NCBI GenBank assembly: GCA_963514005.1
Contig: OY740804.1
Span: 28,086,001 to 28,150,000 of the forward strand
Source: Raja brachyura
Lineage: Eukaryota
DNA length: 64,000 bases
Direction: 5' to 3'
Shown: positions 6,429-58,092 of the stretch, piece after piece
Position numbering within the stretch: the first letter of the stretch is position 1
How the letters are laid out: each line of letters begins with the position of its first letter
Position numbers and translations under genes: made by a program
The notes under the pieces: model-generated
The model's database searches: none
What the model was told of the DNA's origin: nothing
What the model saw: the letters and a program-made list of their open reading frames with translations, nothing else

Positions 6429-8211
6429 TCACAGTGGATTCGGTGAGCCAAAGGGCCTGTTTCTGTGCTGTATTCCTAAAGTCCAAAGTCTCCTAAAGCC
6501 CCTTGCCGTTTCCGACGGAGGGGGGGGGGGGTTGCTTGATCTAAAACGTTAATTCTCTTTCTCTTTCCACGGATTCTGCCGGAACTTATGAGTCCACATA
6601 ATTTGCCGCCCTCCCTCTTCCCCACATACCCACCTTCATCCCCCCTTCCCTCTCCCACTTTCCCCTGTGACCCACATGGACTGACACCTGTTTCTCCTCT
6701 CCCCCCACCCTTCCCACCTACATTCCTTCTTCTAGCTTCACAATTACAACTCTTCAATCCTTTTGTCTCACACTTTTTGTTTTCTCATCGCTGCCCTTTT
6801 TTCCAACCATTTCCCTATCAAAAACCCCTCCTCACCTGCATCAAACTACTACCTGCCAGGATTTGTCCTGCCTTCCTCCCCACCCCCCCACTCCCCCCCC
6901 CCCCCTTTCCCCTTACAATCAGTCTGAAGAAGGTTGTCGACCTGGAACGTCACCTATCCATGTTCTCCTGGGATGCTGCCTGACCTGCTGAGTTACTTGA
7001 GTACGTGTGCATTCAGCTGAGTGTTTCCAGCTGGTTTACACTTCTTCCGGCCTCATAAATTGTAGTACTGTAGACAATTTAAGTCTAGCTCAAATTTGCA
7101 GTGAGTTACAATTCAGAGAGTAAGTGTTATTACTCAGCAAAGATTGGAACCTACTTAATGTGTGGATTGTGAAGAATGGGCAGTCTGAGAAAGGAGGGAA
7201 AAAAGCTGTGGTTATGCTGTTTAGATTTAAAGATAAAGAATTGAAACAGACTCTTCAGCCCACCGTGCATGCCGAACATCAAACTCCCGTTCACACTAGT
7301 TGCATGTTACCCCACTTTCTTATCCATTGCGTACACGCTCAGGGTTACAAAAGCCATTTAACCTGCAAACCAGTATGTCTTTGGGAAGTCATGGAGAACC
7401 GGAGTACCCGGAGAAAGTCCAGGCAGTCACAAGGAGATTGGGTATATTCCAGGTGCTCAGGCTTCCTCTCACATTCCAAAGACGTGCAGGTTTGTAGGTG
7501 AATTGGCTTCTGTACATTGTCCCTAGTGTGTAGGATAGAACTAATGAACGGGTGACCATGGTTGGCATGGGCTTGATGGGCTGAAAGGATTGTTTCCACG
7601 CTGTATCTCTTAACTACTGTACAAACTCCAAATGCACCGGTCTCGATCCAAAACGTCACCCATTCCTGTCCAGAGATGCTGCCTGTCCCGTTGAGTTACT
7701 CCAGCATTTTGTGTCTATCTTTAGTTTAAACCAGCATCTGCAGTTCCTTCCTACACAATATGATGAAGCCATGAGGTTTCTATCTACCAATATGAAGCAC
7801 TGCCTGTCTGTCCTAATAAAATTAAAAATGGACCGGGGATACAATTGCTCCATCCATTCAATGCCTGACTGAATGTTCCCAATGCTGTTTAATATCACCC
7901 TACTCCATGTCAGAATGCTGTGACACAGAGGTCATCGCCAATCTGTTCCAATCTATCCACCGAGACCTCTCTGAAGCCCCAGCTGACTGCACGATTTCAC
8001 GCAACCTCCTCTCGTCTCATTTGTGAACATGTGTGCAAACAAGGCACATCTTATTTACGATCTGTCCGCAGAAAGCTTTCAGTTCATAATGTGACTTCTG
8101 TGTTCTGTTCCACCTTCCAAATGTCATCATCAAGTCAAGAGAGAATTGCACTCCAGGTCATGTTTGAGAGGCGGGGTGGGCTGATCTGGGTTTGGAGATT
8201 CATTGGATCAA

Positions 8212-8515
8212 TGGGCAGCACGGTGGTGCTGCGGTAGAGTTGCTACTTTACTGCACCAGAGCCCCTTGTTCGATCCTGTCTACAGGTTCTATCTGTATGG
8301 AATTTGTACGTTCTCCCCGTAATCGCATGGGTTTTCAGCGGGTGTTCCGATTACCCCCGCACTACAAAGACGTACAGGTTTGTAGGTTAATTGACTTTTT
8401 ACTATAGAACTAGTAACACAAATTGTAAATTGTCCCGAGTGTGTAGGATAGTGCTTGTGTACGAGGATCGCTGGGTTCTACGGACACTTGATGTTTACTA
8501 AACAAAACTTAACTA
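8212..8515 (+). mobile_element. tRNA-derived SINE copy
   Basis: gggcagcacggtggtgc head, gttcgatcc B box. Confidence 0.8.
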
Positions 8516-8946
8516 ATGCTAAAGGGAAGAGGAAACCGGGGCAAATTGTGTACAGCCATATAGCTTGTGTGCACATCAGGTTTCTTTAAACCATACAGAT
8601 TCATTGCATAAATCAATGAGTATATCATAGTTCTTATTTACTGCATCCCCAACATTTTTGGAAACATGTCTTTACACAAACCATTTTCTTCATAAGCTTT
8701 TATTTACAATGATGATTATAATATTATTTGTTCTATTCTGAAATGTGGCCCAGCAATTGAGTTGCTGCCTAACAGCACCAGAGACCCGAGTTTGATCCTG
8801 ATTACAGGTGCTGTCTGAACAGTGGTTTGATGTTCTGTCTGTGACCGCTTGGGTTTTCTCCAAGTGCTCCAGTTTCCTTTTACATTCCAAAGACATGCAG
8901 GCTTGTAGGTTAATTGGCTTCTGTAAGTTGTCCCTAATCTGTAGTA

Positions 8947-9349
8947 TAGAAGCATAGAAAATAGGTGCAGGAGTAGGCCATTCGGCCCTTCGAGCCTGCA
9001 CCGTCATTCAATATGATCATGGCTGATCATCCAACTCAGTATCCTGTACCTGCCTTCTCTCCATACCCCCTGATCCCTTTAGCCACAAGGGCCACATCAA
9101 ACTCCCTCTTAAATATAGCCAATGAACTGGCCTCAACTACCCTCTGTGGCAGAGAATTCCACTGATTCACCACTCTCTGTGTGAAAAATGATTTTCTCAT
9201 CTCGGTCCTAAAAGACCTCCCCCTTATCCTTCAACTGTGACCCATTGTTCTGGACTTCCCCAACATCGGGAACAATCTTCCTGCATCTAGCCTGTCCAAC
9301 TCCTTAAGAATTGTGTAAGTCTCTATAAGATCCCGCCTCAATCTTCTAG
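8947..9349 (-). mobile_element. CR1 3' fragment inserted in a SINE
   Basis: CR1 3' UTR and end of ORF2; SINE head at about 8755-8945 and SINE tail at about 9350-9440. Confidence 0.8.
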
Positions 9350-10480: not shown

Positions 10481-11134
10481 ATGTAACAGGTTATTTCATA
10501 CTTATGGAAAATGTTAACAGACCCGAGTCAAAGCATTGCAAATGTTAATTAGAGTCATAGAGTCACACAGCTTGGAAACAGGCCCTTTGGCCCAACTTGC
10601 CCACACCAACCAACATGTCCCATCTAGACTAGCCCCACCTGCCTGCATTTGGCCCATATCCCACCAAACCTGTCCTATCCATGTACCTGTCTAACTGTTT
10701 CTACAAAAGTTGCAATAGTCCCTGCCTCACTACTTCCTCTGGCAGCTCATTCCATACTCACAGGGTACTGTATTTCAGTTGGCATTTGAACTTGTTAGTT
10801 CTTTAACAAAACACAAAATGCTGGGTTAAATCATCAGGTCAGGCAGCAATCTTCAGACTGAATGTCATTGGCGAGGGGGGAAGCTGAAAAAGAGGTGTGT
10901 GTGGAGGAGAGGGGGGGTGGGGGGTGGAGGGGTTGGTGGTGGAACAGAGTCTGGCAAGTGATAGGTGAATACAGGTGATCGATGGGTGGACAAAGGGTAC
11001 AGAGGAAAATAACACAAAAGTGTGATAAAAAGAGGGACAAAAAGGTACTCCGCAAGGAGAGAAGATAAGTGAAATGTAAAGCAAGAGAGAGGGATATAGG
11101 TGGAAAGGGATGGGAGGGAGTTGTTGATTCTTTA

Positions 11135-11367
11135 GATCGACACAATATACTGGAGTAACTCAGCGGGTCAGGCAGCATCTCTGAAGAAAAGGAATAGGTG
11201 ACATTTCGGGTCGAGACCCTCCTTCAGATTTAAGCAGTCTGAAGAAGGGTCTTGATGCAAAATATCACCTATTCCTTTTCTCCACACATGCTGCCTGAAT
11301 GGCTGAGTTATGCCAGCATTTTGTGTCTATCTTTGGTGTGAACCAGCATCTGCAGTTCCTCCCTACA
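11135..11367. repeat. Inverted pair of Penelope pseudo-LTR fragments (hairpin)
   Basis: gacacaa..ctggagtaactcagcgggtcaggcagcatc...cttcaga followed by its reverse complement. Confidence 0.82.
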
Positions 11368-11473
11368 CGGTTAATTCTTTTGGTTCTTTTTCATCATATT
11401 CCTCTATAATTGCCAGTGTTTGGATATTTTCCGGAGAACAGTTGTTCACCAGCTCTGTGTGATTTCATTGCAG

Positions 11474-11768
11474 CTGCGGACTGACGCGGAGAAGCGGTCT
11501 ATGGTTGAGAGCGGACTGACTTGGTGCGGCAGCTCTGAAGGCAAAGGGCAGAAGAAGTCGGAGAGCGGCTACGATGCCAGCAACCTCAAGATGGATCAAA
11601 ACACAAAGTGGAGACGGATTCGGAGCGAGTCAGCTGACGAGACCACGAAAGGAGAACTCAAGAAACTGCAGCCTGCCGTGCAAACAAGTTCACTAAAGAA
11701 GACTGCGGCACCTGTGGGAGTGACTTCCCCAATGACGTGTTCGGGAGCAGGCTCTCTGAAACCAGCCG
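11474..11768 (+). CDS. NAV1: NAV1 internal coding exon (LRTDAEKRS...SLKPAG)
   Basis: Peptide LRTDAEKRSMVESGLTW...KWRR...GELKK...VGVTSPMT resembles recalled vertebrate NAV1 (LRTDSEKRSLAESGLSW...VAVTSPIT). Acceptor ttgcag| at 11473, donor G|gtgagt at 11769; phase 1 end matches the next exon. Confidence 0.9.
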
Positions 11769-12108: not shown

Positions 12109-12849
12109 CGTTTGAGCAGATGTGTCAGACTAGTTAGACAAAAGATCAAATAGTTTTCTGGTGAATTTCCCCTTGTATTTCCAATTTCCCGTTCATTGTG
12201 ACCTTTAAAATGACATGGCTCCATGATGAAAATATTTCACTCTAATCCCTGTTTATTCCCAAAGGAGCTGTATGTGACCAGCTTTGCTTACTTATTGCGC
12301 TCTCATTTTTCTCCAAGGAAGTCTGCTACTTCGCAAAGAAACGTGTGCAGCCCAGGAACTGAATTTCACCCATTTTTAGCATGTCAATTAGGGGTTATGT
12401 TTTGCCAACTGAAGTATCAGGAAAATAAAGACACAAAGTGCTGAAGTAACTAATGAGTCAGGCAGCATTCCTGGGGAACATGGACAGGTGACGTTTTGGG
12501 TCGGGTCGCTTTGTCAGACTGACGCAACCTGCTCAGATGATCGATCCATGTTATGCAGGGATGCTGACTGACCCGCTGAGTTACTGCAGCACTTTGTGTC
12601 TTTCCTTGGGAAACCAGCATTTGCAGTGTTTCCACATCATCAAAAGAACATAGTGAACATATTTTCTCCTGTTTGACAGCATTGAATCATGGCCTGCTCA
12701 TCTACAGAGGGGAACTCACACTACATTATTTCCCAGTTGATGGGGGGCAGGTTAGCGCTGCTAGAGAATTCTCTCGGGCACATTGGAGGAAGTCGCGGGA
12801 AGTGGAAAAGGAGAAGGTCCATTGGTTATGGAGAGGTCACGCTGATTCC

Positions 12850-13645
12850 TTCTGCAACTCCTTGGTTCACTCATCCCTTCCCACCTAAATCAATGTCTCC
12901 CCGGGGACTTTCCCCGTCTTCAGGAGATGCAGCACCTGTCCTTATACCTCCTCCCTTGACTCCATCCAGGGACCCCGACAGTCCTTCCAGGTGAAACAGA
13001 AGTTCACAAGCACCTCCTCTAACCTCTGTTGCTACATCTGACATTCCCAGTGTGGGCTCCTGTACATCGGCGGGACCAAGCATAGACCAGGCGACCATTT
13101 TACTGAACACTTATGCTCGGTCCAGAAAGGCCTACTGGAGCTCGCAATTGCCATCCACATTAACTCTCCATCCCCTTCCCACACTGACTGCTCTGTCCTG
13201 GGCCTCCTCCATTGCCAGAGTGAGGCCACATGCAAATTGGAGGAACAGCACCTCGTATTTAGTATGGGTGGCTTACAACCCAATAGTAATGGACATTGAA
13301 TTCTCTAATATTAGGTAAAGTCCACAATCACATCACCCCGCCTCTCCCCACCCCCTTGCTCCCCCTTCCTCCACTGAAATTCAGTTAACCAGTTCCACGG
13401 TTCGCAATGATGTATCCCTCGTGGGATCACGCTGTTCCTAGCCAACAATCAGCCTATCGGGGAACCTAACTACCTGCCTGAGGTAGGCCTTACTGGCCTT
13501 GATTTGTCCTAGTCTTTTCTTGTTTCCAGTTCATTCACCACCCTCCACTCCCGCAATCAGTTTGAAGAAGGGTCCCGACCTAAAATGTCACCTATTCATT
13601 CCCTTCAGAGATGCTGCCTGATACGCTGAGTTACTTCAGCATTTA
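12850..13645 (+). mobile_element. Penelope-like element 3' fragment: decayed GIY-YIG endonuclease and pseudo-LTR
   Basis: From about 12990: VKQKFTSTSSNL.CYI*.SQCGLLYIGGTK.R.GD.F.EH, then RKLEEQHL..., MDIEFSN; followed by the ctgaagaagggt...cctgacccgctgagttac-type repeat; an inverted partial copy lies at 12425-12630. Confidence 0.85.
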
Positions 13646-13952: not shown

Positions 13953-14519
13953 ATCATTTTGTGTCTATATCACTGGATCCCTAATGGCTCTCATGCCCCC
14001 GCCCCGTTCTTACTGTAAAACAGCCAGACAATGCACCAAGCTGTAAAAGGGCCACTTTCACTAACTATGTGAACTACAGGACCATTTTTTTCACCATCTG
14101 CTCTGAGCTCCACACTGCAGCGATGCTGCAGTCGTTCTCAGTGCTGCGTGTGTACAAATGGGGAGCAGATGAATATCAATGTAGGGAGTCAGTCAATGCT
14201 AACTCAGTGCCCCAGCCAGGAACCTTCAAATCACATACTGTTCCTGACCTGTCCATGACTTACTGGCTGCATGAAGTCAGAAACATGCAGGTCAAAGCCC
14301 ATTTGCTTCAGATCCAAAGTCAGGAACTTACTCTGCTTTTGTTGAAGATGTTTCCACTGGTGTGAAACAGAATGAGTACTTGATGTCAGTGCTAGGATAT
14401 ACTGTCAAGAACTGAGGTAGGCACAAAATGCTGGAGTGACTCAGTGGGACAGGCAGCATTCAGACCCCTGAAGAAGGGTCTCGACCCAAAACGTCAACCA
14501 TTCCTTCTCTCCAGAGATG

Positions 14520-14835
14520 CATATAAGATTGTTAAGGGTTTAGACACAGTTTAAGAATAAGGAGTAAGCCATTTAGAACGGAGACGAGGAAACACTTTTT
14601 CTCACAGAGTTGTGAGTCTGTGGAATTCTCTGCCTCAGAGGGCGGTGGAGGCAGGTTCTCTAGATGCTTTCAAGAGAGAGCTAGATAGGGCTCTAAAAAT
14701 AGCAGAGTCAGGGGATATGGGGAGAAGACAGGAACGGGGTACTGATTGGGGATGATCAGCCATGATCACATTGAATGGCGATGCTGGCTCGCAGGGCCGA
14801 ATGGCCTACTTCTGCACCTATTGTCTATTGTGTAT
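14520..14835 (+). mobile_element. CR1 3' fragment nested in a Penelope-derived repeat
   Basis: CR1 3' end with ctattgt tail splits ...ccagagatgc|...|tgtcccgctgagttactcc. Confidence 0.8.
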
Positions 14836-15676
14836 TGTCTGTCCCGCTGAGTTACTCCAGCATTTTGTGTCTATCTTTGGTGTGTACCCAGCATCTGCAG
14901 TTCCTTCCTATGCAAAAACTAAAGTGTCTGGTTCAATTTCATGAAGGAAAAAACATTAATCAGAAGCAAACACTTTAAAACATGGGCAAAATGAATGAAT
15001 GAAAGAATAAGTTTATTGGCCAAGTATTCACATACAAGGAATTTGCCTTGGTGCTCCGCCCGCAAGTGACAACATGACATACAGTGACAATTAGGAATGG
15101 TACATAAAACATTAAACAGAATGATGTTAATATATAGTTTGAAGTGTAAAGCACATGGGCTCTAAAGATCTAATTTCCATACTTGGAGCTGTGGTTTGCA
15201 GGCATTGCTGGGACCAATGCAAGTGCCCATGACTACACCTTTGACCCGGAGGAGGTGGGGGGAGTCGAAGGAGAAGTTGTTAATGGTGAGGACCAAGAAG
15301 GGTTCCGACCCAAAACATCACCTATTCCTTTTCTCCAGTGATGCTGCCTGACAAGCTGTGTTACTCCAGCATTTAGTGTCTAATTTCCTGACATGCGTAT
15401 TTTAGGTTTTAAATGCTGTCTGGTGTGGATGTCTGTTTCACATTTGTACATTTGCAACAATTTTCTTGATTCGTTGAATGACGATATCTGAATTATCAAG
15501 TCTAGTTTAACTCGTGCGCATGATTTCAAACTGATAGCTGTTCACAAAATCATAAAATGTTTGTGATAATTTTGTGAGTCAATTGAATGACTCAATCAAT
15601 GAGGTGCCTCATGAAGTGTTTCTAGTGTTCATCTCCTCCCTCTATAACTCCCAGCCAAGCCAACTCCTGGGATAGG

Positions 15677-16044: not shown

Positions 16045-16717
16045 GGGATAGTTATGTTCTCGCCAAATAAAAGCAAATGCGATGGTGCGCATCAGTGCTA
16101 TGTTTCCTCCTTTCACACATCTTGTATTGTTCCATCCCATCATATATAGCTCTCCACGTTGTTTCTCTTGAGATCACACTTCCCTGAACCAACAACGGAC
16201 CTGTGTAGGAAGGAACTGCAGACGCTGGTTTCAACTGAAGATAGACACAAAAAAGCTGTAGTAACTCAGCGGGACAGGCAGCATCTCTGGAAACAAGGAA
16301 TGGGGATGTTTCGGGTATAGACTTCTCTCCAGAGATGCTGCCTGTCCCACTGAGTTACACCAGCTTTTTGTGTCGACCAACAATGGACCTACCAGGCAAC
16401 ACTCTGCCTGAGGTAATGTGTGGCTGGCTCTTTTTGGTCCTGGTCTTTTCTCGTCTCCAGTTCTTCACCTGCCCCACCCCCTCACCCCCCACAACCTGCC
16501 ACTCCCAACCCAATATATCACCCATCCTTTCTTGCCAGAGAAGCTGCCTGACTTGTTGAGCTACTCTAGCACTTTGGTACAAGGCAGCATCTGCAGTTCT
16601 TTGTTTCTCCATTTGCAGTTCCATTTGTCTCAGTTCTTTATGTCATGTCATTACTGCTGATAGCTTTCTTGGAAACAATAAATGTAATGGATTTGCAGTG
16701 GGAATGTGACGTACTTC

Positions 16718-23086: not shown

Positions 23087-23137
23087 TAAGTAATTGCTTT
23101 TGCCCGTCCACATAGAGCTAAGGAACATATTCACATA

Positions 23138-25497: not shown

Positions 25498-27319
25498 CCA
25501 TTACTCATTCCCTGGTGCTCGGTGAAACCACGGTTACAGTACAGTCTTCAATTTTTACCGTGATTGCACCAGGAGGGGGGTTCTGAGAGAGAAGGCGAGG
25601 AATAGTTCTGAATTTGGTGAACGATTAATCAGATTTGCACTTCTGCTAATCATGAACTTTCTGTCACCTCTGCAGCAAAGATTATGTGTGTAAATGGCAG
25701 TGATGTACGCAGAGAAACATACTTATTAATTGCGCCCTTAGTCTTTGTAAAGTGGAAAAATAGCTAAATCCCACATTTAATCTAACTAAAGTGCACCAGA
25801 TTTATTATCTGTCTATCTGGTATTCAATCAGATGTCTGTGTCAGATTAAAGAATCACAGCTCAACCAACACCTATTTCACCGAAGATAAACACAAAATGC
25901 TGGAGTAACTCAGCGGGCAAGGCAGCATCTGTGGAGAAAAGGAATACATGACATTTTGGGTCGAGACCTTTCTTCAGACTGAGAGTCAGGGGAGAGGGAA
26001 ACTGGAGGCATGAAAACAATGGCCCATTGTTGGCTGTGGAAGAGGCGATAGCAAAGTGATACGATCGGTGAAAATAGCAAAACATCTATTTCACATTTGC
26101 TCTTTATTCTCATTTTGATATTTTACCATTCTCTTTCTTATGAAAAATCAATTGTCTGTCTAAAATTCAAATTTAATTTGTAGTGGATCTTTCTCCAATA
26201 TTAAAAAGTGATTTAAAAAAATGATATCAAGGATATATGATGGTTTGCTTTTGCTGACATTTGGAGGCCAAAGTAAAATTATTGTGCGTCTAGATTTGAC
26301 CTTTGCTTGTCATTGAGAATGCATTGACCTCTTTGTGGCCGTGCATTAACTTTAATGCCTGGTGCAATTCAAATGGAAAAACTCAGTGGATTTGCCATCA
26401 CAGTCAATTTCTATCTGCTGTGTCGATTCAATTTAATGTCATTTGTTTGATTTTTTTAGCCTTGATGAATGTGATTGGTCTCACGGTAAATCACAAATCA
26501 ATTCCATGGAGGAGAATTCTGTTATTCTCTCTCGCTATTAAAACCTGCAAACGAGCCGGGCAGAATATTTAAAAAGTGTGTTAATTGCATGAAGCAGGAG
26601 CATCCTATCGCAGTGTTGATGCTGGCGTCTCCTTAGAATGAACACTGAACAAAGCGGCAGATATTCAGGTTCTATAAATAGCTCTTTATCCTGCACATCT
26701 AAGTCTGAAGCAATAGGCCGAATCAGAGCAAAGACAATGCACAGACAAGTTGGGCCAAGGAGCCTGTTTCTGTGCTGTACAACTCCCTGACTACGATTCA
26801 CCAACACTCCCCACCAGGGCTCGCACCTAATTCCCCAAATCCCACCACCCCTACCCCGCCTTCACATTCCACCTACATTCTTACATCCTTTCCTCTGGCT
26901 TCACAATTTGCAAATCTTCAATCCTTTTGTCTCACACTTTTTATCACCTCTGGCCTTTGTCCAACTTAAGGGATGTTATTTCCTTTATCTTGTATCTGTA
27001 CACTGGACGACTTGATTGTATTCATGTATAGTCTTGCTGCTGACTGGTTAGCATGCAGCAAAAAGCTTTTCACTGTAGCTCGGAACATTGACAATAAACC
27101 CAACTGAACTATCTGCCCATCAAACAATCCCCCCTTGCCCGTGTTCACCTATTACCTGCCACGCTTTGTCCTGCCTCTCCTGTTTTTTTAGCTTTCTTTG
27201 CTCCCCACCTGCTCCTCTTTCAATCAGTCTGAAGAAGGGTCCCAAACGGAAATATCACTTGTCCATGTTCTCTGGGGATGCTACCTGACCCATTGGGTTG
27301 CTCCAGCACTTTGTGTCTT

Positions 27320-36650: not shown

Positions 36651-37566
36651 GACTGTTTCTCTCTCTCTATAACTCTACAATGGTCTGACCCAATGGGCTT
36701 CCCTACTGCAAGTGGCCCCAAGACCGAGAGAGCAGAGCATCAAGCACTGAGGTGCCTACCCTGGAGATGCAACACTCATGATCAGTGATGCTTGTGGAGA
36801 AAGGATGAATGAGCATTAACTAGTTAATGATTCTGGTGCTAGCTTTGAATAAAATGCCAATGTCCCCACTTAATTCACTTCACTTTGCCAATGTTTCTTT
36901 CCCACTCTTCGTTTAACCTTGAGCTTTAAACACGGGGCACAGGCCACATCTTGGGCTGCTAATTTCTGTCAGTAAATGCATTAATATATCGTGACAACAG
37001 GTCGACACGTACATAATGACAGTCATGTGAATCTTGCCCCGAAATATCCAGACCAATTTCCCAATGGTCCCTAGTTGAGCCAGAAATGAATTATGGGAGC
37101 AAAGAGATTGCTCAAGTCCAATTTGCAGCAACCGTAGTTCTGAAGAATTCAAGGGATTTCTCATGCATCTATACAATTAGCTTACAAACAGTGGAGTCTT
37201 TGAGCTGAATCACTGGTGATATTATTAGTATTACTTCTGCAAAATCCCAAAGTTGCTGGCAATTTCAAATTTTAATGGCAGTGCACCCTCATTATTCCAA
37301 CATCACTACCATAGCCAAATCCAAACATTGCAGTATAAACCAACTTAATCTCGGGGTTAAGAACTAAAAGTTATGAGTCACCCTGACACAATCTATTTGA
37401 AGAAGATAGAAGTCTGATGAAGGATCTCAATCCAAAACCACTCATTCCTTCTCTTCAGAGATGCTGCCAGTCGGGCTGAGTTACTCCAACATTTTGTCTA
37501 TCTTTGGTGTGAACCAACATCTGCAGTTCCTTCCTACACAACCTATCTTATTACTATATTGTCAGT

Positions 37567-37594
37567 CTGAAGAAGGGTCTCGACCCGAAATGTC
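37567..37594 (+). ncRNA. Minimal hammerhead-ribozyme motif in a Penelope-derived repeat
   Basis: CTGAAGA-A-GGGTC-TC-GACCC-GAAA-T-GTC: both conserved boxes, a closed stem II and a GUC triplet; activity not shown. Confidence 0.6.
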
Positions 37595-38074
37595 GCCTAT
37601 TCCTTCTCTCCATAGATGCTGCCTCACCCGCTGAGTTTCTCCAACATTTTTTGTCTACCTTATAACTTTGATTGGTAATTGCATCAATTGGATAGACAAA
37701 GGGATATACAGGTAATGGAAGGATATGGATTATATGTAGACACTAAAGAGTAGGACTTGGCATCATGTTCGGCACAGCCATCGTGGGTAGAAGGGCCTGT
37801 TCCTGTGCTGCACTGTTCTATGTTTAATCGGGGATCAGGTGACTGCCAGATGGACTGGCTGTGGATAGGCCCAAAACATGCCACATTGCTACTGACTGAA
37901 GTTGATGCCAACCAATATGTGTCAGTGGAGAATACGTGTTTGGTGCAATGTTACTTCAAAATCAGTGCATTGATGTCCCCACTTTGGCGATAAAGGAAAG
38001 GAAATATGTATTTTGAGATCAGAAACTATTAATAAAGTAAGGTAGGATTGATGGTTTAGTAAATAACATAAGAG

Positions 38075-39720: not shown

Positions 39721-40388
39721 ACCTCCAGTGTTCCAGAAAAAACAATCCAAGTCTGTCCTTGTAGCTAATACCCCTTAAGGCATCATTCTGGTAAATCTCC
39801 TCTGCCCTTTTTGCAAAGCCTCCACATACTTCCTGTAACAGGGAAACCAGAACTGCATACAATACTCCAAATGCAGCCTAACCAAAGTCCTATAGAGCTG
39901 AAGATCAACACAAAGTGCTGGAGTAACTCTGCGAGTCAGGCAGCGTCACTGCAGAAAAAGGATGGATGACATTTCGGGTCGGGAGCTTTCTTCAGACCGA
40001 AAGTAGAGGGAGGGAAATGGATGTAAAGACCAGAACAAAGCTGGGCTCAGAACAGAAGAGGAAGGAAGGGTTGAGCCCATTATGGCCCATTGTTGGCTGG
40101 GGAAGAGGTGATAATGAAGTGATAAAGCTAGCTCTTTGATTAAATCTATTGTTGACCCAATGTGCACAACTGATTCTCGGTGGTGATGACTTTCCCAGCA
40201 TACAGTTGTTCCCTCGCTTCCAGATGAGACGGTGACTCCAGCATTTTGTATCTATCCTCCACGGATACTGCCTGACCTGTCGAATTACTCCAGCATTTTG
40301 TGTATTTCTGTTGAAGTTTTATCTGCAGACTCCATTTTGCCTCAATGACCCTACCATTAATTCCTTGTTATTCTTTTTACCCGTTCAG

Positions 40389-41085
40389 GTAAAATTGATT
40401 CTAAAGCCCAAGACAAAGGAAAAATGGCTCTCAAAGGAACGACCTTGCAAAGATCTTCATCTGATGCCAGTCGGGAAAGAGTTGGAGAGGCACGGAAACC
40501 TCCGTCAGGTATTTCCAGGCCTTCCACTGGAAGTTCTTTCGGCTACAAGAAACCCACGACGGGCACCGCGACTGTCATGACAGCTGGCGGGAGCTCCACG
40601 GGGAAAGCTCCGAAATCCACGGGCATCCCTGTTAAACCGACAAACTCCAGAAAAACCAGCCTGGATGTGTCCCAGAACCACGATGGCTTCATGTCGTCAG
40701 GTGCAAGGACAGCCGTGCAGTACCGCAGCCTGCCCCGTCCGGCCAAGTCCAGTTCGGTCAGCGTCACTGGCAGGGCGGGTATGAACAGGCCGGTCAGCAG
40801 CAATATTGACCCCAGCCTCATCAGCAGCAAGCACGGGGGGATCCCAGTGTCCCGCCTGAAGGAACCCTCGAAAATTGGTTTGGGGAGAACAAGCTCCGGG
40901 CCAGTGAATCAAACGGACCGAGAAAAAGAGAAAGCCAAGGCAAAGGCTGTGGCTTCGGATACTGAATGTACAAGTGCAGCAGGTTCTGCAAAGATGGCTG
41001 CCGTCTCCGACAGTCAGAATAAATTGCAAGGAATGCGACAGCAAAGCTGCAAGTTCTCAGAGATGTCATCTCCAACTACACAGAG
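40389..41085 (+). CDS. NAV1: NAV1 internal coding exon (GKIDSKAQDKGK...SPTTQR)
   Basis: Motifs LQRSSSDA, KPPSGI, SFGYKKP, RKTSLDVS, QYRSLPRPAKSSS, VNQTDREKEKAKAKAVA are characteristic of NAV1. Acceptor ttcag| at 40388 (G+GT=Gly across the junction), donor AG|gtacgt at 41086. Confidence 0.95.
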
Positions 41086-43038: not shown

Positions 43039-45515
43039 TAGGAATCCTTGCAGGAATGTTTAGTTTAGTTTTGAGATATAGCATGGAAACAGGCCCTTGG
43101 GCCCCACCAAGTTCACGACAACCCGCACTCACCTGTTCATACTAGTTCTATCTTATCAAACTTTCTTGCCCACTCCCTACACATTAGGGGCAATTTATAG
43201 AAGTCAATTAGCCTGCAAACTTGCACATATTTTGGATGCGGGAGGAAACGACAGGGAGAACGTGCAAATTCCACACACGCAGCAGCCGAGGTTAGGATCG
43301 AACCCAGGTCTCTGGTGCTGTGAGGCAGCAGCTCCAACAGCTGCGACGCCCTAATGTATTGGAGCCGACATGAATGCAAGAGCAAATCAATTGCAATCAA
43401 TTAACTTTGTACAGTCTGAAGAAGGATTCTGACCCAAAACATCACCTATCCATGTTTTCCAGAGATGCTAGACACAAAATGCTGGAGTAACTCAGCGGGA
43501 CAGGCAGCATCTCTGGAGAGAAAGAATGGATGACGTTTCGGGTCGAGACCCTGCTTCAGACTGAATTTTCCAGAGATGCTGCCTGCCCCACTAAGATGCT
43601 CCAATATTTTGTGTAATTTTGTTTTTATTTTGTGTAATTTTGTGTAATTAGGCCATTCAGTCCATCAAGTCTACTCCCCCATTCAATTGTGGCTGATCTA
43701 TCTTTCCCTCTTAACCCCATTCTCTTGCCTCCTCCCCATTGCACTCAACACCCGTACTTATCAGAAAAATAGGTCAATGCCATCAATGTCACATTGCAGT
43801 CTGAAGAAGGATCCCGACCTGAAACATTGTCTGACCTTTGCCTCCCACAGCTGCTGTCCAACCCACTGAGTTTCTCCAGCAGTTTGTTTTTGGCTCAGGA
43901 TTCCAGCATCTGCAGTCTATTAAGAGAAATTATCAACTAAATTCAGGTCCTTTGGCCTTGAGTTGGGCCTGTAATGAAGCCTGACACAGAATGGTCCTAG
44001 CAATCATAAACCATTTATTTTAAGTAGTCATTACTCCTGTCATCATTCCAGCTGAACTAACATGCTCTTTAGGGAACAGATGCCCATGAGCTGAGGAAAA
44101 ATGTTTGCAGAAATGAACATTAAGCATACTTTCAGCCATTTGCATGCATTATTGCCTTTTCACCATCAATCAACTAGGTTTTTGTATCATTTCTTTATTT
44201 CACATTGGTGTGGGAACGGCGATCAATTTGTTTGGCTAAGAACAAATAAATAAATAATGTGCAAGGCAAAAAATGTTCAGAATTGCTTTTTAAAAAAAAA
44301 AAACAGATTTATGCTGTGCATATCCTTGCAGACTAAACACAGTCACTGGCTTTTTCACGTTTCACCATCATCGAGGCTCTGTCAAAATCAGCATGATTTG
44401 TTATGTTTCCCATTATAGGAGGATGGCGTGCTGTGACAGTAGATCAGACTGTTGTCATTCAAAATGCATGGTTTGTTCTGAATAGAACCATTGCTACGAG
44501 TTTCTATTAAATGGCATCTATGAACTGCCTCAGTTCCCAACAGATGTTCAATTGAACACAAAATTTATAAAACCATTCAATATTATTTATACAGTGCTTC
44601 TGAGGTTTGTTTAAAACTGGCTACCGTAGGAAATTGAGACTACTTAACGTGGTTTAATCTATTTATATTACTCTTGACAGACCAGCATACTAAAAGGCAA
44701 AAAAAAATTGCGAGCAACATTAATTCTAATGTTAAATGTATAACCCTTATTAATTCAGTGGTTGAAATTGTTTATGTTTCATTGTTCCTTTGTCTCCTTC
44801 TTTCCCGGAAGGCATTCACCCCTCACTGTTATCTTTCAGTCATAGTTTGGATACTTCTACAGTGAGTGGCAGAAGCCATAGAGTATCACAGCTGTTTTTA
44901 CTCAACATGCTATTGCAGTATGTGCCCCAGGAACCCTGTTGAATTAACTCTTAATAACCCAGTGATCTGTGCCCAACTCTAACCTGCCAACTCATTGGAG
45001 CAATCTCAGTTACTCTTGGTGTTTAGTTCAGTTTAGGGACACAGGGTGAAAACAGGCCCTTCGGCCCACCGAGTCCATGTCGACCATCGATCGCCCGTAC
45101 ACTAGTTCTACGTTATCCCACTTTCACACCCTACACACTAGGGGCAATTTACAGAGGCCAAATAAGCTACAAACCTGCACACCTTTGGAATATGGGAGGA
45201 AACTGGAGCACCCAGAGCAAACCCACGTGGTCCACAGGGAGAATGTGCAAACTCCACACAGACACCACCCGTAATCAGGATCGAATCCGGATCTCTGGTA
45301 CTATGAGACTTTCTGACATCGGAAATTATGATGGATAGCTTGTAACATTTTCCAGATTATGTTTTCCTTTAACTTTTATCTGCAGCCAAATTGAATTATA
45401 AAGTCTATTATCAATCTCACTGGGACAGATTTTTAGTTTAAGTTTAGTTTCGTTCAAAGATACAGTGCGGAAACAGGCCCTTCGGTCCACTGAGTCCACA
45501 CCCACCAGCGACCCA

Positions 45516-47010: not shown

Positions 47011-47669
47011 CCCCCACACATTAACGCTACCCTACGCGCACTAGGGACAATTTTACATTAATAGCAAGCCAATTAATCTACAAACCTGTACGTCTTTGGC
47101 GTGTGGGAGGAAACCGAATATCTCGGAGAAAACCAACGCAGGTCACGGGGAGAATGTACAAACTTCGTACAGACAGGACTCATAGTCAAGATAGAATCCA
47201 GGACTCTGGCGCCGAAAGGCAGTAGCTCTTCCACTGTGCCACCGTGTCGCTCTCTACCGCCACGCCACCGTGCTGCCCTAAGATCTTCATCGACGGGAAA
47301 TCCCATTATTTAAGGAGATGCTATATCGGTTGTGGATAGGAAAGATAGCTGCCAGTTTGTCTGAGACCTTGAAGTTGTAAATATTTTACCAAACACAATG
47401 TCCAATGTATCACAAGCAATCTGACCTCACTCCATGTTCCCCCCATCACCACAGTGTGGAGATTGCACAGAGTCATGAGGATAGGATCGATGAGAGGAAA
47501 CTTGAAGAACTGATAATTGCGGGCAGGAGACTGGTGGAGTACCACGGTTCAAATTGCTTAGGCGTACAAGACGAGGTGTGAGGAGGAGATTACCAGGGAT
47601 GGGAGTTAGATGCAAAATGCTGGAGTAACTCAGCGCGACAGGCAGCATCTCTGGAGAGAAGGAATCGGT

Positions 47670-47697
47670 GACGTTTCGGGTGGAGACCCTTCTTCAG
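47670..47697 (-). ncRNA. Minimal hammerhead-ribozyme motif in a Penelope-derived repeat
   Basis: Minus strand reads CTGAAGA-A-GGGT-CTCC-ACCC-GAAA-C-GTC. Confidence 0.6.
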
Positions 47698-49046
47698 GCC
47701 AGGGATGTGAGCTTGGGTAGGAATGGTTGTGTGGAGCAGGAAATAAATCAGGAAGGGCTAAAGAAATGTTTGGGGAGGGCGTTGGAGAGAAGATCTGATG
47801 GAAGATCGAGTTATCAGGGAGATGGTTAATGGATAGGTGGGCTGGGGAGATTTGGAGGCCCTACAGGGAGGTAGGTTATAGAGATTCATAGGGTCATACC
47901 CCTTGGAAACAGGCCCTTTGAACCAACTTGCCCAAGCTGACCTACACTCGTCCCACCTGCCTGCATTTGGCCCATATCCTATCGTAAGTTAAAGATCAAT
48001 ATGACTATAATATAAATAATCAGTTTCTCCACACCAACCCTGACTGGAAGAGACCGTTGAATAGGGATTCCAGTAAACATTATCTTCATTATCTGACTCC
48101 ATCAATCTTCCTATGTAGCAGATACATGGCAAAAATAAAATGCTTGCAATATGAATTGTACATCGTTCAACATCACTACATGGGTCTGTAGCTTCTGTGC
48201 ATATGCTCATTATTTGCATGGAACATTGGAATCAACGTTATGAAAATTTGTAGCATGCTGACATAGAATATGATTACATTTAGTTGAAGTTCTATTGCAT
48301 AGCATTCAAAATGTTGTATTATGCAGTAGAATCCACAGGCCATTATTTCCCCTGAAATGTGATTGAAATGTCCTTCACAAGGTGCACATTTGGTACTAAT
48401 ATAACGTGTTGCTTAGTTGGTCTTGGGGTTGGATACATATGTATGAAAAGGACAAGAACCTCTGTTTCCATCTAGCAACAAAAAGATTCTTCATGGATAT
48501 AGATGCTATGCAGAGGTGATTTAATATATGATTATTTAATACATGGCTTGGATACAATTTGGTCTAATGCCATACTGGCCTGAGACCAGCAACTGGAAAT
48601 AGTTAGGCATCTGTCATGAGGTTCACAGCTTTTATACCTTTGTCTCTATGTTGATATGTTCTCCAACTGTGTTATACCAAAGCAATGCAATTGTAATGTG
48701 TGGGAAGGAGCTTCAGATGCTGGTTTCAACTGAAGATAGGCACAAAAAGCTGGAGTAACTCAACAGTCCAGACAGCATCTCTGGAGAAAAGGAATAGGTG
48801 ACATTTTGGGTCTCAAGAAGGGTCTTGACCTGAATAATAATCAATTCTAATCAAGAATTTTCTGTCAATCTGCGCCTTAGATATACTCAATGACATGGCC
48901 TCCACAGTCATCTGTGGCACTGAAAATATGCTCTATTGATTAAAATGGTGTGTTTAATTCTACATTTGCTCAGAGTAGATTGTGGCTTTTCCCAAATATT
49001 GCCTTGCCAACATTGTTGATTGAACATCTTTTCTTTTCCACTCTAG

Positions 49047-49481
49047 GGTGATAAGCTCAAAAGGAATCAGCAAGCCACCTACAATGGCCAACATTGACAA
49101 AATCAACTCCAACAGCCTAGATTCATCCACCTCAGGACATTCTTTGATCAGCAGCAGTATTGCCAATGAAACATTAACCAAACTCCCCGATGTTCAGACA
49201 AGTACAATCAGCTTAACTCCATGTCTAACTCCAAGCCCTGCCCCTGTCCTTAATGTGAATTCCAGTAGCTTTAATCAAGGTCTTGGACTAGGTAGCAATT
49301 TCATAAACAACAAGGAAACCCTTATGTACCCTAAGCTAAGTAGCCTGCACACCAGCATGGAATCTTTGGATCTCCCGTTGAGTGTTCCATGTTCATTTCC
49401 ACCTAACCGTACGCTTTCAAGGGAAGAAGACCACAGCACGCTCACATGGACTGGAGGGTCTAGATTCTCACAGATGGAGAG
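49047..49481 (+). CDS. NAV1: NAV1 internal coding exon (VISSKGISKPP...FSQME)
   Basis: Motifs ANIDKINSNSLD, TPSPAPVLNVNS, MYPKLSSLH.SMESL, LTW. Polypyrimidine tract plus ctctag| at 49046, donor AG|gtaagt at 49482; phases 2/2 fit both neighbours. Confidence 0.93.
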
Positions 49482-50639
49482 GTAAGTGACTCATTTAATA
49501 CTTGTTTCTTTCATGTTAAGGAATTGGAAATAGAAAGAGCGCAAGATTGTAGATGAATGATATTAAAGAAGTGCAGGTGCTGGTTTATACCAAAGATAGA
49601 TTCAAAGTGCTGGAGTAACTCAACGGGTTAGGCGGCATCTTTGGAGAAAAAGGATGGGTGACGTTTTGGGTGAAGAATGCTCCCGACCCGAAATGTCACT
49701 CATCTTTTATTTCCAGAGATGCTGCCTGACCCGCTGAGTAAGTCCAGCACTTTGCAATATTACATTTAAGTGAATTCCTTTTTAAAAGATGTCAAGATTT
49801 TGCTCATGCAATCATATTGCTGCTAAGAAATAATGAATTACTGTACGATGTGATAAAATGATGTTGAGTCATTATATTAGAACGTTCAGTTTGTGGAGCA
49901 ATAAGATTAAAAGTGTTAATCTCTTGTGGTTTCTTTAGCTCTCAGTAGATGCATTTGAGAAGTTGAATTGGTGGTTTAGTTAAACATGTGCATTTGGTGA
50001 TAGTTCCCAACCTTTGAATTTGCATCAAAATGTCACTAATTATGCTGTTTTTCACAAATGAAATGGTAACCCATTTAATTCACAGATGTTAATTCTCGGT
50101 TTCAATGGCTATATTCGTGATGTCTTTTGCTCTCAATGAATGCAATTGCTAAATCAGCTTGAGACAATAGCATTTGAGTTCAGTGGGATTCATTGAGCTG
50201 CTCCCATTTGCTGCTTACAAGCTGATAAAGCTTCAGAGTAATTTATATTTTTGCCATCCAAACACCGTCACTTCATTACAATGCTTTAACCTGCCCGTGG
50301 TGCCTTTGTGGCACAGTAACATCGTTTACAGAACTAGGAATCAATTAAATGGGTGGGAGGAAAACAGCTGAATCTATGACGAGATATTGCATGCAGCATC
50401 CATACTACAACTGCACATATATTTACAGCACATTAACAAAGAGATATTGTATATTCTTCAAATAGAATGCAATCATTGGATTTGTGTCAAAGGTTTGCCA
50501 GGAGGTATTTTAAGTAAAATCAAACTGCATTTTCAAGAGGAAAATTTGATTGACTTTGGGGATGAAAGGTTGAGAGTAATATTAGGAACAGCAACATCTC
50601 TTGTTCCTAAAATACAATGTCACTAATTGGAAGTGATTA

Positions 50640-55626: not shown

Positions 55627-56557
55627 TTCATTGTCAACCAGAAATGCACTTTCAGCCAGCAACTCCCAGGGCATGGATAGAATCCAAATTAACCAAAGGA
55701 GCATTAGACAATATGTAAAGGACAAACCTCTTGAATAGTATTGTAAAACCCCAAGGTAACATAATGAATGAGTACTTTTCTCTTCAAAGTTAGAAGATTT
55801 TGAAATGTGCAATCTTTATACTTCACACATGAAAGAGAACATAAGCATGCTTGCTCCTTTTTTGTTCCCTTTCTCAAATTACTAACTACGTGACTGATTG
55901 ATAGAGATATTTATGCACTTTCTCCCCGACAATGTAGAATGTGCAGAGCCAGGAAGAGAGAATAGGCGTATGATCAAAGCTTGCTTAAAGTGTTTGGTTC
56001 TGAAGTAGCACAACGCTAGAGTTGCTGCCTCACAGCACCAGAGACACAGGTTCAACCCTGACCTCGCATGTTAGCTGTACGGAATTTGTACGTTCTCCCT
56101 GCGATCGCTGGTCAGCGCGGACTCGGTTGGCCAAAGGACTTGTTTCTACGGTGTATGTCAAAATTCTGAAATCTAAAGTCTAAATCCAAGGAGAAAATCT
56201 CAGAAAGCAAGGGAGTCGTTCTTGGTAACGTACTAAAAATGCACAATACTTTGTAGCAACTATTTTGTGCCTCAATTGCAAAAGTCTTCCACGAACCTGC
56301 CATTTCCTTTAGGATTAATTTATAAGTTGAAGTGCTTTGGAGGAGACTTATACGTAAATGATGTGTTTTCTTTAGTTGCGTGCTAACCAATCAGCGGAAA
56401 GACAATACATGATTACAATTGAGCCATCAACGGTGTATGTAGGGAACAACATGCAGAACGTTTAGTGCAGGTTAAAGTTAGTAAAGTTCAATCAAAGATA
56501 GTCTGAGGATCTCCAATGAGGTAGATAGTAGTTCTGGACTGCTCTAGTAGTTGGTAA

Positions 56558-56946
56558 TACCCCTGTCCCACTTAGGAAACCTGAACGGAAACCTCTGTAG
56601 ATTTTGCGCCCCACCCAAGGTTTCTTTGCGGTTCCCGGAGGTTTTTGTCAGTCTCCCTAATGGTCGAAATTGGTTTCCGTTTCTTCTATGTTCCGGCGAT
56701 TATTTAAAAAAATTCGAAACCGGCCGCGACTAAAAATATGATGCTGTTTTAAAAATCGGTAATTTTTTAGTCGAAGCTGGTTGCGATGCTAGTTGAAGGT
56801 GGTTGCCGGAGGTTGCAGGTAGTGGAAGGTTTTAGTCGCGGCCAGTTTTTAATTTTTTGAAACCTCCGGGAACCGCACAAAAACCTTGGGTGGGGTGCAA
56901 AGTCTCCAGAGGTTTCCGTTCAGGTTTCCTAAGTGGAACAGGGGCA
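56558..56946. mobile_element. Same palindromic MITE family (copy 3), TAA target duplication
   Basis: TAA at 56555-56557 and 56947-56949; interrupts a LINE 3'-UTR repeat whose uninterrupted form (tggtaagatg in reverse complement) is seen near 1965-1980. Confidence 0.85.
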
Positions 56947-58092
56947 TAAGATGGTTCAGTTGCAATAGTATTGCATTTTGGTTGAAGTAGATCAAATTAA
57001 CTCAATGGAACAGTAAAATGTCGATGTTTGATATGATGCCGGATGAAATGACATTATCTTTGATTGCTACTGGCATCCATTCACTGAGTGCAACATAACA
57101 CACACTAGTTGTTTTGTTTTTATTCTTCACAGAAACCACCAACTGCTGATATCATTCAGATTGGAATGAATTCTGAATATATATTTGTTGCCAATCCCAT
57201 GCAAGCTCAAATTTGTTGAGCAATACATTCTTTTGTGAAACAAGTTTTATATGAAAACGCCATGGACCTGGTCCCATGTGCAGGAAGGAACTGCAGATGC
57301 TGGTTTACACAGAAGACAAAACACAAGGTGCTGGAGTAAATCAGCAGGTCTGGCAGCATTTCTGGAGAAAAGGAATGGGTGACCTTTCGGAAGAAGGGTC
57401 TCGACCCAAAACGTCACCCATTCCTTCTCTCCAGAAATGCTGCCTGTCCTGCTGAGTTACTCCAGCATTTTGTGTCGAATTGGGTCCAATGGTTCACCTA
57501 CTGCATTGAAATCAGACTATTTTAAAAGGAAATGAATACCTTAACTGCAAAAGAATTCAAATAACATAGGCTTAATTTAATGTATGAGAAATGTATAACA
57601 TTTATTCAGAAAATGTCAATTATGAATTACAGGTGCTCCAATTTTCTGACTTTAGATTGGTGTAGATTGGGTCTTTGTTGTTTCTTAATGAGAACTCTCT
57701 CAATGAAAAATAAGTTTTCCAGCAAGAAAGAGAAAAGAAATGTAAAGTTATTCGGATCTGGATATCAACCTGATCAAACGGTTGGCTCGTGCGCAAGGCT
57801 GAGGGAAGTGTAAATATCTAAACCTACAGCTCAGGATGATAATTGAACCAAGGTACCAAAGGAGCACGCAATGGTACCAATGATCCAAAGGCTGAAGCAT
57901 TTTTGCCGTGAGTGTAAGATGAAGCCAAATCTCATCGTCTGTTTTAATCTCCCCCCTCCATCAAAATTTAATCCATCTGTTTTGCTGTTTTTTTTTCTCT
58001 TTCTTTTGAATAGTTGGTTATTAATTCATTGTCTGTGTTGTACAGTGTTGTTGTGTACGATGTTGTATCAGTGTTGCCTGTTTATTTTGTAG

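What the first reader, a model, noticed from the sequence alone, without database searches (positions are those of the whole stretch)
6920..57480. Many Penelope-derived short repeats carry a minimal hammerhead ribozyme consensus
Seen: roughly 15 copies of consensus CTGAAGA-A-GGGTC-TC-GACCC-GAAA-C-GTC-ACC, e.g. + strand near 6924, 11239, 13562, 14468, 27228, 35716, 37567, 43416, 43801 and - strand near 11200, 25950, 31952, 39968, 43531, 47670. Two follow PLE coding remnants (GIY-YIG near 13000, RT near 35400). Established: CUGANGA and GAAA boxes with an NUH site define hammerheads; PLEs carry minimal type I hammerheads whose palindromic ACGU stem III is thought to work as a dimer; an extra A after A9 occurs in natural hammerheads. 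Inference: a highly amplified ribozyme-bearing non-autonomous family inside NAV1 introns; sense copies with intact cores (37567) could cleave pre-mRNA. Stem I is only 2-3 bp and many copies have decayed (GAAA to AAAA), so activity is uncertain.
Basis: partly seen in the sequence, partly recalled or inferred. Interest (0 to 1): 0.7.

Follow-up and report, generated by a model that had tools for sequence, protein, structure and literature searches.

The report
Fossil Penelope transposon tails with hammerheads
The introns of this cartilaginous-fish NAV1 gene hold about forty short, mutated leftovers of a Penelope-like retrotransposon whose shared sequence matches the minimal hammerhead ribozyme already known from such elements, and the individual copies are predicted to be inactive, so this is mostly ordinary transposon debris.

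Summary
The motif is real: 41 copies (25 +, 16 -), none in a reversed control. They are the 3' ends (pseudo-LTR plus optional tail) of a Neptune-type Penelope-like element (PLE), lying in NAV1 introns of a cartilaginous fish. Three copies adjoin RT or GIY-YIG remnants, 9 of 21 units have target-site duplications, and 11 units are head-to-head. The consensus fits the published PLE minimal hammerhead, with a weak 2-bp helix I. The copies look dead. None of 20 full-core copies passes a strict checklist, and only 37567 passes a lenient one. The general base G12 is A in 15 of 29 copies (a CpG site). Private mutations in the core are not depleted (11 vs 13.9 expected), there is no covariation, and there is no strand bias. 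Cleavage of NAV1 pre-mRNA is therefore unlikely. One feature is unexplained: 16 of the 24 copies that reach the core stop within -6..+3 of it. This suggests a fixed template end or RT stop at the ribozyme's 5' edge, which would make these SINE-like by-products. Verdict: new member of a known kind, low interest.

The parts
6737..6997 (+). PLE 3' UTR remnant plus pLTR, core at 6924 (A13 mutated)
7639..7756 (+). 5'-truncated pLTR with long tail, starts in helix II
10802..10890 (-). long copy with helix II and cleavage site deleted
11134..11368 (.). head-to-head pair (cores 11227 -, 11239 +), 11-bp TSD, folds as one long hairpin
12423..12627 (.). head-to-head pair (core 12517 -)
12862..13644 (+). 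broken PLE linker (CX2-5CxxC type) plus GIY-YIG endonuclease, about 240-nt 3' UTR, pLTR with core at 13562
14415..14520 (.). head-to-head pair (core 14468 +, G12A)
14836..14910 (+). tail-only fragment
15198..15382 (.). inverted PLE RT fragment (15198-15296, -) joined head-to-head to a pLTR copy (+); 10-bp TSD
16203..16374 (.). head-to-head pair, 15-bp TSD
16377..16602 (+). long copy, CUGANGA box lost
25879..26061 (-). long copy, core 25977 (G12A)
27107..27318 (+). long copy, core 27229 (both boxes kept, helix II broken)
27785..27962 (.). head-to-head pair (core 27866 +)
28156..28276 (.). + copy with a very short inverted arm, 12-14-bp TSD
31851..31981 (-). solo copy, core 31979 (both boxes kept, helix III mismatch)
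32010..32074 (-). fragment starting at +29
32284..32344 (+). weak fragment (E 3e-4)
35040..35225 (.). head-to-head pair of a second subfamily; near-perfect hairpin of about 70 bp; TSD of 12 bp or more
35293..35786 (+). broken PLE RT joined by an internal deletion to the pLTR, core 35716 (U4A)
37411..37539 (+). upstream copy of the only sense tandem; GAAA and cleavage triplet lost
37562..37661 (+). best-preserved sense copy, core 37567: boxes and helix II intact, C15.2U, 2-bp helix I
39901..40124 (-). long copy, core 39995 (helix II broken)
40252..40328 (+). tail fragment
43412..43625 (.). three abutting copies (+ 43416, - 43559, + 43566)
43797..43916 (+). solo copy, core 43801, 8-bp TSD overlapping both ends
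47604..47697 (-). solo copy closest to consensus (1 mismatch), inside a LINE remnant, 13-bp TSD; no helix I because it starts at the core
48698..48835 (.). head-to-head pair, 10-bp TSD
49565..49760 (.). head-to-head pair (core 49670 +)
57278..57476 (.). head-to-head pair (core 57388 +), 9-bp TSD
11417..11768 (+). host NAV1 coding exon (splice sites read from sequence; start inferred)
40389..41085 (+). host NAV1 coding exon, 85% identical to horn shark NAV1-like
49047..49481 (+). host NAV1 coding exon
58093..58134 (+). host NAV1 short coding exon (tblastn E 0.008, AG/GT flanks)

Best explanation
These are 41 decayed, 5'-truncated 3' ends of a Penelope-like retrotransposon (likely of the Neptune clade) lying in NAV1 introns; their consensus matches the minimal hammerhead of such elements, and the copies are predicted to be inactive fossils. 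Shown: the copies, the attached RT and GIY-YIG remnants, target-site duplications, two classes of 3' end, head-to-head pairs, and decay concentrated at CpG sites. Inferred, step 1: the PLE protein cut the target and began reverse transcription inside the RNA at one of two sites about 95 and 125-130 nt downstream of the ribozyme core. Step 2: it often did so from both cut ends, which gives head-to-head pairs. Step 3: it copied uncleaved RNA and usually stopped early. Step 4: in the source elements the motif was likely a weak, dimer- or protein-dependent ribozyme kept by selection. Step 5: after insertion the copies drifted, and methyl-CpG deamination turned G12 into A in half of them.
For: Full-length 813-827-aa ORFs with DKG motif, RT, CX2-5CxxC linker and C-terminal GIY-YIG match all the coding remnants. 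One stingray ORF matches all three at E 7e-39, 1e-34 and 1e-9. TSDs of 9 bp or more (1 mismatch allowed) flank 9 of 21 units vs 3.7% of random pairs. 3' ends: 17 at +88..+103, 18 at +116..+129, 6 elsewhere. The long tail is on one arm in 8 of 11 head-to-head units. Pair arms share subfamily letters, 73% vs 60%, p=0.005. PMC11167929 (main text read): the Anolis PLE extends both strands from two internal start sites, uses uncleaved RNA, and its hammerhead needs the protein. 0 of 20 copies are strictly intact. G12A in 15 of 29. Private core changes 11 vs 13.9 expected, p=0.27. No covariation above shuffles. Strand ratio 25:16, p=0.21.
Against: Plain random truncation does not explain why 16 of 24 copies stop at -6..+3. 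The G12 CpG decays lopsidedly (G>A 15, C>T 4), more than other CpG G's (21 of 92, p=0.005). The one-arm tail pattern is not statistically significant (p 0.11-0.14). Two unit boundaries in the TSD test were set after seeing the repeat. The folding energies lack a positive control. No cleavage was assayed, and 37567 passes a lenient checklist. The clade name rests on the linker motif, not on a tree.
Confidence: 0.85

Rival explanations
1. The short copies come from a template whose 5' end lies at the edge of the hammerhead. That template is either the start of the PLE transcript or transcripts of solo pLTRs, so the 100-135-bp unit behaves as a SINE-like non-autonomous module mobilised by Neptune protein. 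This is compatible with the best explanation and refines it.
For: 16 of 24 copies that reach +3 stop within -6..+3, against 8.4% per 10 nt expected from the downstream truncation rate (p about 2e-12). The 8 long copies share upstream sequence (p 0.017 or less) and the 16 short ones do not (p 0.044 or more). Solo copies with TSDs (47697, 43801, 37567) show the end was made at insertion. TCAGTCT at -5..+1 fits the initiator consensus YYANWYY (recalled). PMC3846280 reports Inr-like motifs and trans-mobilisation by pLTRs in rotifer PLEs.
Against: The window was chosen after seeing the data. 10 of the 16 sit in head-to-head units, where the near-palindrome TCAG-T-CTGA and helix II offer microhomology. 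Ends scatter over 10 nt. In D. virilis the start site lies about 120 nt upstream and the intron acceptor sits at this place (PMC2377424, PMC4209133); here a pyrimidine tract plus CAG also precedes the core. No RNA data.
Confidence: 0.3
2. Some sense copies are active ribozymes that cut NAV1 pre-mRNA as cis or trans dimers.
For: 37567 keeps both boxes, helix II, GUC and a G-U-containing helix III. Three sense copies keep both boxes. PLE minimal hammerheads show low dimer cleavage in vitro (PMC4209133).
Against: A symmetric dimer needs a second good sense copy, and the only tandem partner (37414) lacks GAAA and the triplet. Helix II of 37567 has predicted probability 0.01 or less in context. Sense arms of pairs are locked in long hairpins (z -13 and -19). 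Sense copies are not depleted. Even consensus-type motifs cleave poorly or only with PLE protein (PMC4209133, PMC11167929).
Confidence: 0.05
3. The excess of G12A reflects selection for, or amplification from, ribozyme-dead versions.
For: G>A at G12 in 15 of 29 vs 21 of 92 at other CpG G's. G12A slows cleavage 500-fold to about a million-fold (PMC2553840 passages). Ribozyme-dead PLE RNA still inserts in vitro (PMC11167929).
Against: No sense/antisense difference (10 of 18 vs 5 of 11). Total decay of this CpG (18 of 29) is close to that of the helix III CpG (16 of 29). The change recurs in different subfamilies and differs between arms of the same pair, as independent mutation would give.
Confidence: 0.08
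4. The repeats are a non-LTR retrozyme family: tandem units processed to circular RNA.
For: Retrozymes are proposed to derive from PLE pLTRs and were found in the one chondrichthyan sampled (10.64898/2026.07.22.740005). There is one direct tandem at 37411-37661.
Against: No tandem array of the unit. Copies are solo or inverted, with PLE tails and TSDs, and are not bounded by cleavage sites: only 2 of 41 start within 2 nt of the site. The motif is minimal, not canonical.
Confidence: 0.03
5. The resemblance to a hammerhead is accidental.
For: No Rfam hammerhead hit, no covariation, and helix I is only 2 bp.
Against: Every element of the published PLE consensus is present in order, in the expected place in the 3' pLTR about 240 nt after the endonuclease. 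Core columns do not vary between subfamilies.
Confidence: 0.03

Closest known systems
[quoted passage not shown]
   Same: CUGANGA plus one extra nucleotide, G10.1-C11.1, GAAA, loop-less palindromic helix III, NUH; position in the pLTR; mostly single copies, some as opposite-strand pairs; high copy-to-copy variation.
   Different: Helix I is only U-A plus G-C (3 bp in one subfamily). The six 2-bp examples among the 56 rows of their Fig. S3 are all G-C pairs (counted by eye). No cartilaginous fish is among those rows.
Neptune-clade EN+ Penelope-like elements (as defined in PMC8557442)
   Same: [quoted passage not shown]
   Different: No full-length copy in the window. The 5'-end hotspot at the ribozyme edge was not found described in the passages read.
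PAc, Poseidon element of Anolis (PMC11167929)
   Same: Two 3' termini about one tail apart downstream of the hammerhead; extension from both strands; copies made from uncleaved RNA.
   Different: Different clade; mechanism shown in vitro there, only inferred here.
Non-LTR retrozymes (PMC7229834; 10.64898/2026.07.22.740005)
   Same: Short non-coding, hammerhead-bearing, PLE-related repeats.
   Different: Retrozymes are head-to-tail tandems with active, mostly canonical ribozymes; these are solo or inverted decayed copies.
Ultraconserved intronic hammerheads of amniotes (HH9/HH10; recalled, cited in PMC7229834)
   Same: Intronic location in a vertebrate gene.
   Different: Those are few, canonical and conserved; these are multicopy, minimal and drifting, with no Rfam match.

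Membership tests
EN+ Penelope-like element (Neptune type) | PLE-type RT and C-terminal GIY-YIG of one ORF | tested here: met
   Remnants attached to 3 copies match single RT+GIY-YIG ORFs. The remnants alone give no Pfam hit.
EN+ Penelope-like element (Neptune type) | CX2-5CxxC linker before the endonuclease | tested here: met
   12889-13038 aligns to that linker in P0136, P0252, P0253 and P0272; the first Cys has decayed in the window copy.
EN+ Penelope-like element (Neptune type) | RT phylogeny within Neptune rather than Nematis | not tested
   No labelled reference set. Vertebrates carried Neptune and Poseidon only in 10.64898/2026.07.22.740005 (passage).
EN+ Penelope-like element (Neptune type) | 5' truncation with inverted partner copies | tested here: met
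   11 head-to-head units plus one inverted RT fragment.
EN+ Penelope-like element (Neptune type) | Optional 30-40-bp tail, often at one end | tested here: met
   Bimodal 3' ends, 17 and 18 of 41; tail on one arm in 8 of 11 units, not significant.
EN+ Penelope-like element (Neptune type) | Target-site duplications of about 8-15 bp | tested here: met
   9 of 21 units vs 3.7% null.
PLE minimal hammerhead (family consensus) | CUGANGA(H), helix II with G10.1-C11.1, GAAA, palindromic helix III, NUH | tested here: met
   Consensus of alignment A1 against the published consensus.
PLE minimal hammerhead (family consensus) | Helix I of 3-5 bp (2 bp in a few) | tested here: inconclusive
   2 bp; the third pair forms in 4 of 20 copies.
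PLE minimal hammerhead (family consensus) | Covariation of helices | tested here: not met
   All five measures at or below shuffles; the copies are close relatives decaying at CpG, so power is low.
PLE minimal hammerhead (family consensus) | Self-cleavage as a dimer or with PLE protein | not testable with these tools
   Needs a bench assay.
Active hammerhead (individual genomic copies) | All core nucleotides and all three helices intact | tested here: not met
   0 of 20 strict, 1 of 20 lenient; 6 of 20 keep both boxes.
Active hammerhead (individual genomic copies) | Core more conserved than flanks after insertion | tested here: not met
   11 private changes vs 13.9 expected; G12A in 15 of 29.
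Non-LTR retrozyme | Head-to-tail tandem units, each with a complete hammerhead | tested here: not met
Non-LTR retrozyme | Circular RNA intermediates | not testable with these tools
   No RNA data.
SINE-like non-autonomous PLE derivative | Common 5' boundary | tested here: inconclusive
   16 of 24 end at -6..+3, but 8 run upstream and 17 others start downstream.
SINE-like non-autonomous PLE derivative | Own promoter and independent transcription | not testable with these tools
   Only an initiator-like match (recalled consensus).

The most novel reading that the evidence does not exclude
In cartilaginous-fish Neptune elements the RNA template begins at the 5' edge of the hammerhead. Internal priming at the tail sites of that leading pLTR then yields fixed 100-135-bp 'strong-stop' copies, so the ribozyme-plus-tail module spreads like a SINE at about 0.6 copies per kb here. 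This would explain why PLE hammerheads are mostly found as solo motifs and would locate the promoter and RT start sites from genome sequence alone.
Probability: 0.25. Interest if true: 0.5.

Novelty: new member of a known kind. Interest (0 to 1): 0.22.

Why it matters
Minimal hammerheads in PLE terminal repeats, present as thousands of solo copies in vertebrate genomes, have been described since 2014, so the main observation extends a known pattern to a cartilaginous fish. Searches pairing Penelope with ribozyme and Leucoraja or cartilaginous found no paper in the held library; the paper of Lunse et al. could not be read. The window is a tidy genomic illustration of the in vitro PLE mechanism: two internal RT starts, extension from both ends, uncleaved template. 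If the 5'-end hotspot holds genome-wide, it gives a direct handle on where PLE transcripts start or where RT stops, which is still unresolved. Any effect on NAV1 is more likely through long intronic hairpins or cryptic splice acceptors than through cleavage (inference).

Tried and rejected
Rfam found no hammerhead at E up to 1 over the window or E up to 10 around 37567; its miRNA-like hits are inverted repeats. Pfam gave no hit on the 4 PLE remnant peptides, and the PDB gave none for the endonuclease piece, so identity came from homologues. Cleaved RNA as template was rejected: 2 of 41 copies start within 2 nt of the site, and one of these is an internally deleted longer copy. A spliced template was not supported: copies starting at -1 share no upstream exon. 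Deaminase editing of cDNA was rejected: non-CpG G>A 30 of 472 vs C>T 61 of 748. The apparent compensatory changes in helix III (2 cells) are double CpG decay. The crude comparison of core vs non-core (4.6% vs 13.3%, p=4e-5) was set aside because subfamily-variable columns drive it; without those 18 columns p=0.13. Nearest-neighbour folding puts the active consensus dimer 16-24 kcal/mol above the free ensemble, but with no calibrated positive control it was used only qualitatively. ARAGORN found no tRNA.


Full report
Observation. All 15 sites cited carry the motif. A profile built from the copies finds 41 hits and none in the reversed window. They are 25 on + and 16 on - (p=0.21), on average 86% identical to a 138-nt consensus, and cover 5.9% of the window without touching an exon. 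Rfam lists no hammerhead family here.

Host. The ORF at 40361-41140 is 85% identical to horn shark NAV1-like and 76% to elephant shark NAV1. tblastn and splice signals give four + strand exons near 11417-11768, 40389-41085, 49047-49481 and 58093-58134. The best hit of the endonuclease remnant is a little skate protein (63%). The host is thus a cartilaginous fish, and + copies are sense to the pre-mRNA.

What the repeat is. The remnants alone give no Pfam hit. One stingray ORF matches all three. Full-length 813-827-aa ORFs with RT, DKG, CX2-5CxxC and C-terminal GIY-YIG match them too (two of the three ORFs hit all three remnants). By the definitions in PMC8557442 (passages) this linker marks Neptune or Nematis; I call it Neptune without a tree. 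The 3' ends are bimodal: 17 at +88..+103, 18 at +116..+129 from C3, and 6 elsewhere, which matches the optional 30-40-bp PLE tail. Eleven units are head-to-head. The long tail is on one arm in 8, both in 1, neither in 2 (not significant), and arms share subfamily letters more than random copies do (110 of 151, null 60%, p=0.005; 10 pairs). TSDs of 9 bp or more flank 9 of 21 units against 3.7% of 1000 random pairs; two boundaries were set after one search showed the repeat. These are standard PLE insertion features (PMC3846280, parts 1-2 of 5 read).

The ribozyme motif. The consensus reads as helix I 5' strand, CUGAAGA, an extra A, a 4-bp helix II closed by G10.1-C11.1, GAAA, palindromic ACGU without loop, C17, and helix I 3' strand. 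This fits the published consensus for metazoan PLE hammerheads (PMC4209133: main text parts 1-2 of 4 and supplement parts 1-2 of 3 read). That paper found no cleavage by a monomer, low cleavage by dimers, and thousands of mostly single copies in coelacanth and Xenopus. Here helix I is only U-A plus G-C; a third pair forms in 4 of 20 copies. For the Anolis element, the hammerhead cleaved only with the PLE protein, was dispensable for insertion in vitro, and left no cleavage-site ends in RNA-seq; RT started internally at two sites and extended both strands (PMC11167929, main-text section read; a term search of its supplements found nothing and figures were not seen).

Are the copies active? Of 20 copies aligned over the whole motif, 6 keep both boxes, 0 pass a strict checklist and 1 (37567) passes a lenient one. 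G12 is the G of a CpG and is A in 15 of 29 copies; G12A slows hammerheads 500-fold to about a million-fold (PMC2553840 passages). The helix III CpG is decayed in 16 of 29, and SINE CpGs in the window in 36 of 90. Non-CpG core positions look conserved at first (11 of 237 vs 269 of 2019, p=4e-5), but this comes from 18 subfamily-variable columns outside the core; without them p=0.13. Base-matched private changes are 11 against 13.9 expected. No core column varies by subfamily (0 of 10 vs 18 of 59, p=0.053). The best reading is selection in the source elements and drift in the copies. There is no covariation and no strand difference in G12A (10 of 18 vs 5 of 11). For 37567, the only tandem partner lacks GAAA and the triplet, helix II is predicted unfolded in context, and the tandem folds no better than shuffles. 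Sense arms of pairs are buried in long hairpins. The energy model penalises even the consensus dimer by 16-24 kcal/mol and had no positive control, so it is only qualitative. Cleavage of NAV1 pre-mRNA is unlikely but untested.

An unexplained feature. By hand classification, 17 of 41 copies start at +4..+64, 16 start at -6..+3, and 8 run upstream into a shared pyrimidine-rich 3' UTR. An anchored alignment test agrees with this split, with 31979 borderline. At the downstream truncation rate, 16 of 24 stopping in 10 nt has p about 2e-12; the window was chosen post hoc and 10 of the 16 belong to head-to-head units. Only 2 of 41 start within 2 nt of the cleavage site, so the template was uncleaved. 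There are three candidate causes. The first is a transcript start at the initiator-like TCAGTCT (consensus recalled), which with internal priming would give fixed-length SINE-like copies. The second is microhomology at the near-palindrome TCAG-T-CTGA and at helix II. The third is an RT stop near an intron acceptor, since D. virilis has its intron end at this place and its start site about 120 nt upstream (PMC4209133; PMC2377424 passages). I favour the first at about 0.25-0.3. The lopsided decay of the G12 CpG (G>A 15, C>T 4) is also unexplained.

Comparison and novelty. It works like, and on the tested features belongs to, the EN+ PLE class with a minimal hammerhead in the pLTR. It is not a non-LTR retrozyme: there are no tandem arrays (definitions from PMC7229834 passages, and bioRxiv 10.64898/2026.07.22.740005, parts 1-2 of 5 and passages; its supplements were closed and may list chondrichthyan families). 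No cartilaginous fish is among the 56 rows of Fig. S3 of PMC4209133. Searches returned 0 papers, one search returned 4 seen as listings only, and one search listed 9. Lunse et al. (PMC5785218) was not held and is known to me only through PMC6765202 (passages); it may already include shark or skate examples. Verdict: new member of a known kind, interest 0.22; the strong-stop reading has probability 0.25 and interest 0.5 if true.

Noticed in passing
window 16860-21400 (+): Nearly complete DIRS-like tyrosine-recombinase retrotransposon in a NAV1 intron: RT (PF00078), weak Dam-methylase match, and phage-integrase N-terminal domain in overlapping frames, with a few stops. The DIRS label is recalled from this domain set.
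   Followed up: partly
window 23136-23466: 156-bp arms, 97% complementary, 19-nt spacer: a MITE-like palindrome unrelated to the PLE repeat.
   Followed up: no
window, e.g. 1275-1477, 11830-12127, 24327-24959, 45021-45327, 51443-51720: A second abundant repeat family (D2/D3/D8), probably an elasmobranch SINE such as HE1 (name recalled, untested); used only as a CpG-decay comparator.
   Followed up: partly
window 45740-47031 (-), 9721-10149 (-), 39019-39435 (+), 4668-5093 (-): Many LINE ORF2 fragments (RVT_1 hit at 46267-47031); PLE copy 47604-47697 sits in the upstream part of this LINE remnant.
   Followed up: partly
window 35040-35225 and 11134-11368: Head-to-head PLE pairs give long intronic RNA hairpins (-129 and -127 kcal/mol, z -19 and -13), possible substrates for editing or small-RNA processing.
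   Followed up: partly
window 11227/11239, 35122/35111, 48812/48807, 49669/49670, 57390/57388: In all 5 pairs where both arms cover G12, one arm has G and the other A (read); about 3% by chance, post hoc.
   Followed up: no
window 39995 (-), 49670 (+): Two copies share a change at helix II position 10.3 that breaks the pair, hinting at a source lineage with a damaged ribozyme (n=2).
   Followed up: no
window 6900-6923, 13540-13561, 27205-27228, 35690-35715 (+): Sense copies with a pyrimidine tract followed by CAG just before the core; possible cryptic splice acceptors in NAV1 introns.
   Followed up: no
protein P0125: A partial 'Proteus mirabilis' protein on a 474-bp contig is 73% identical to the PLE RT remnant; likely fish DNA contaminating that record.
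   Followed up: no
window 32748-32928: Assembly gap of 181 N.
   Followed up: no
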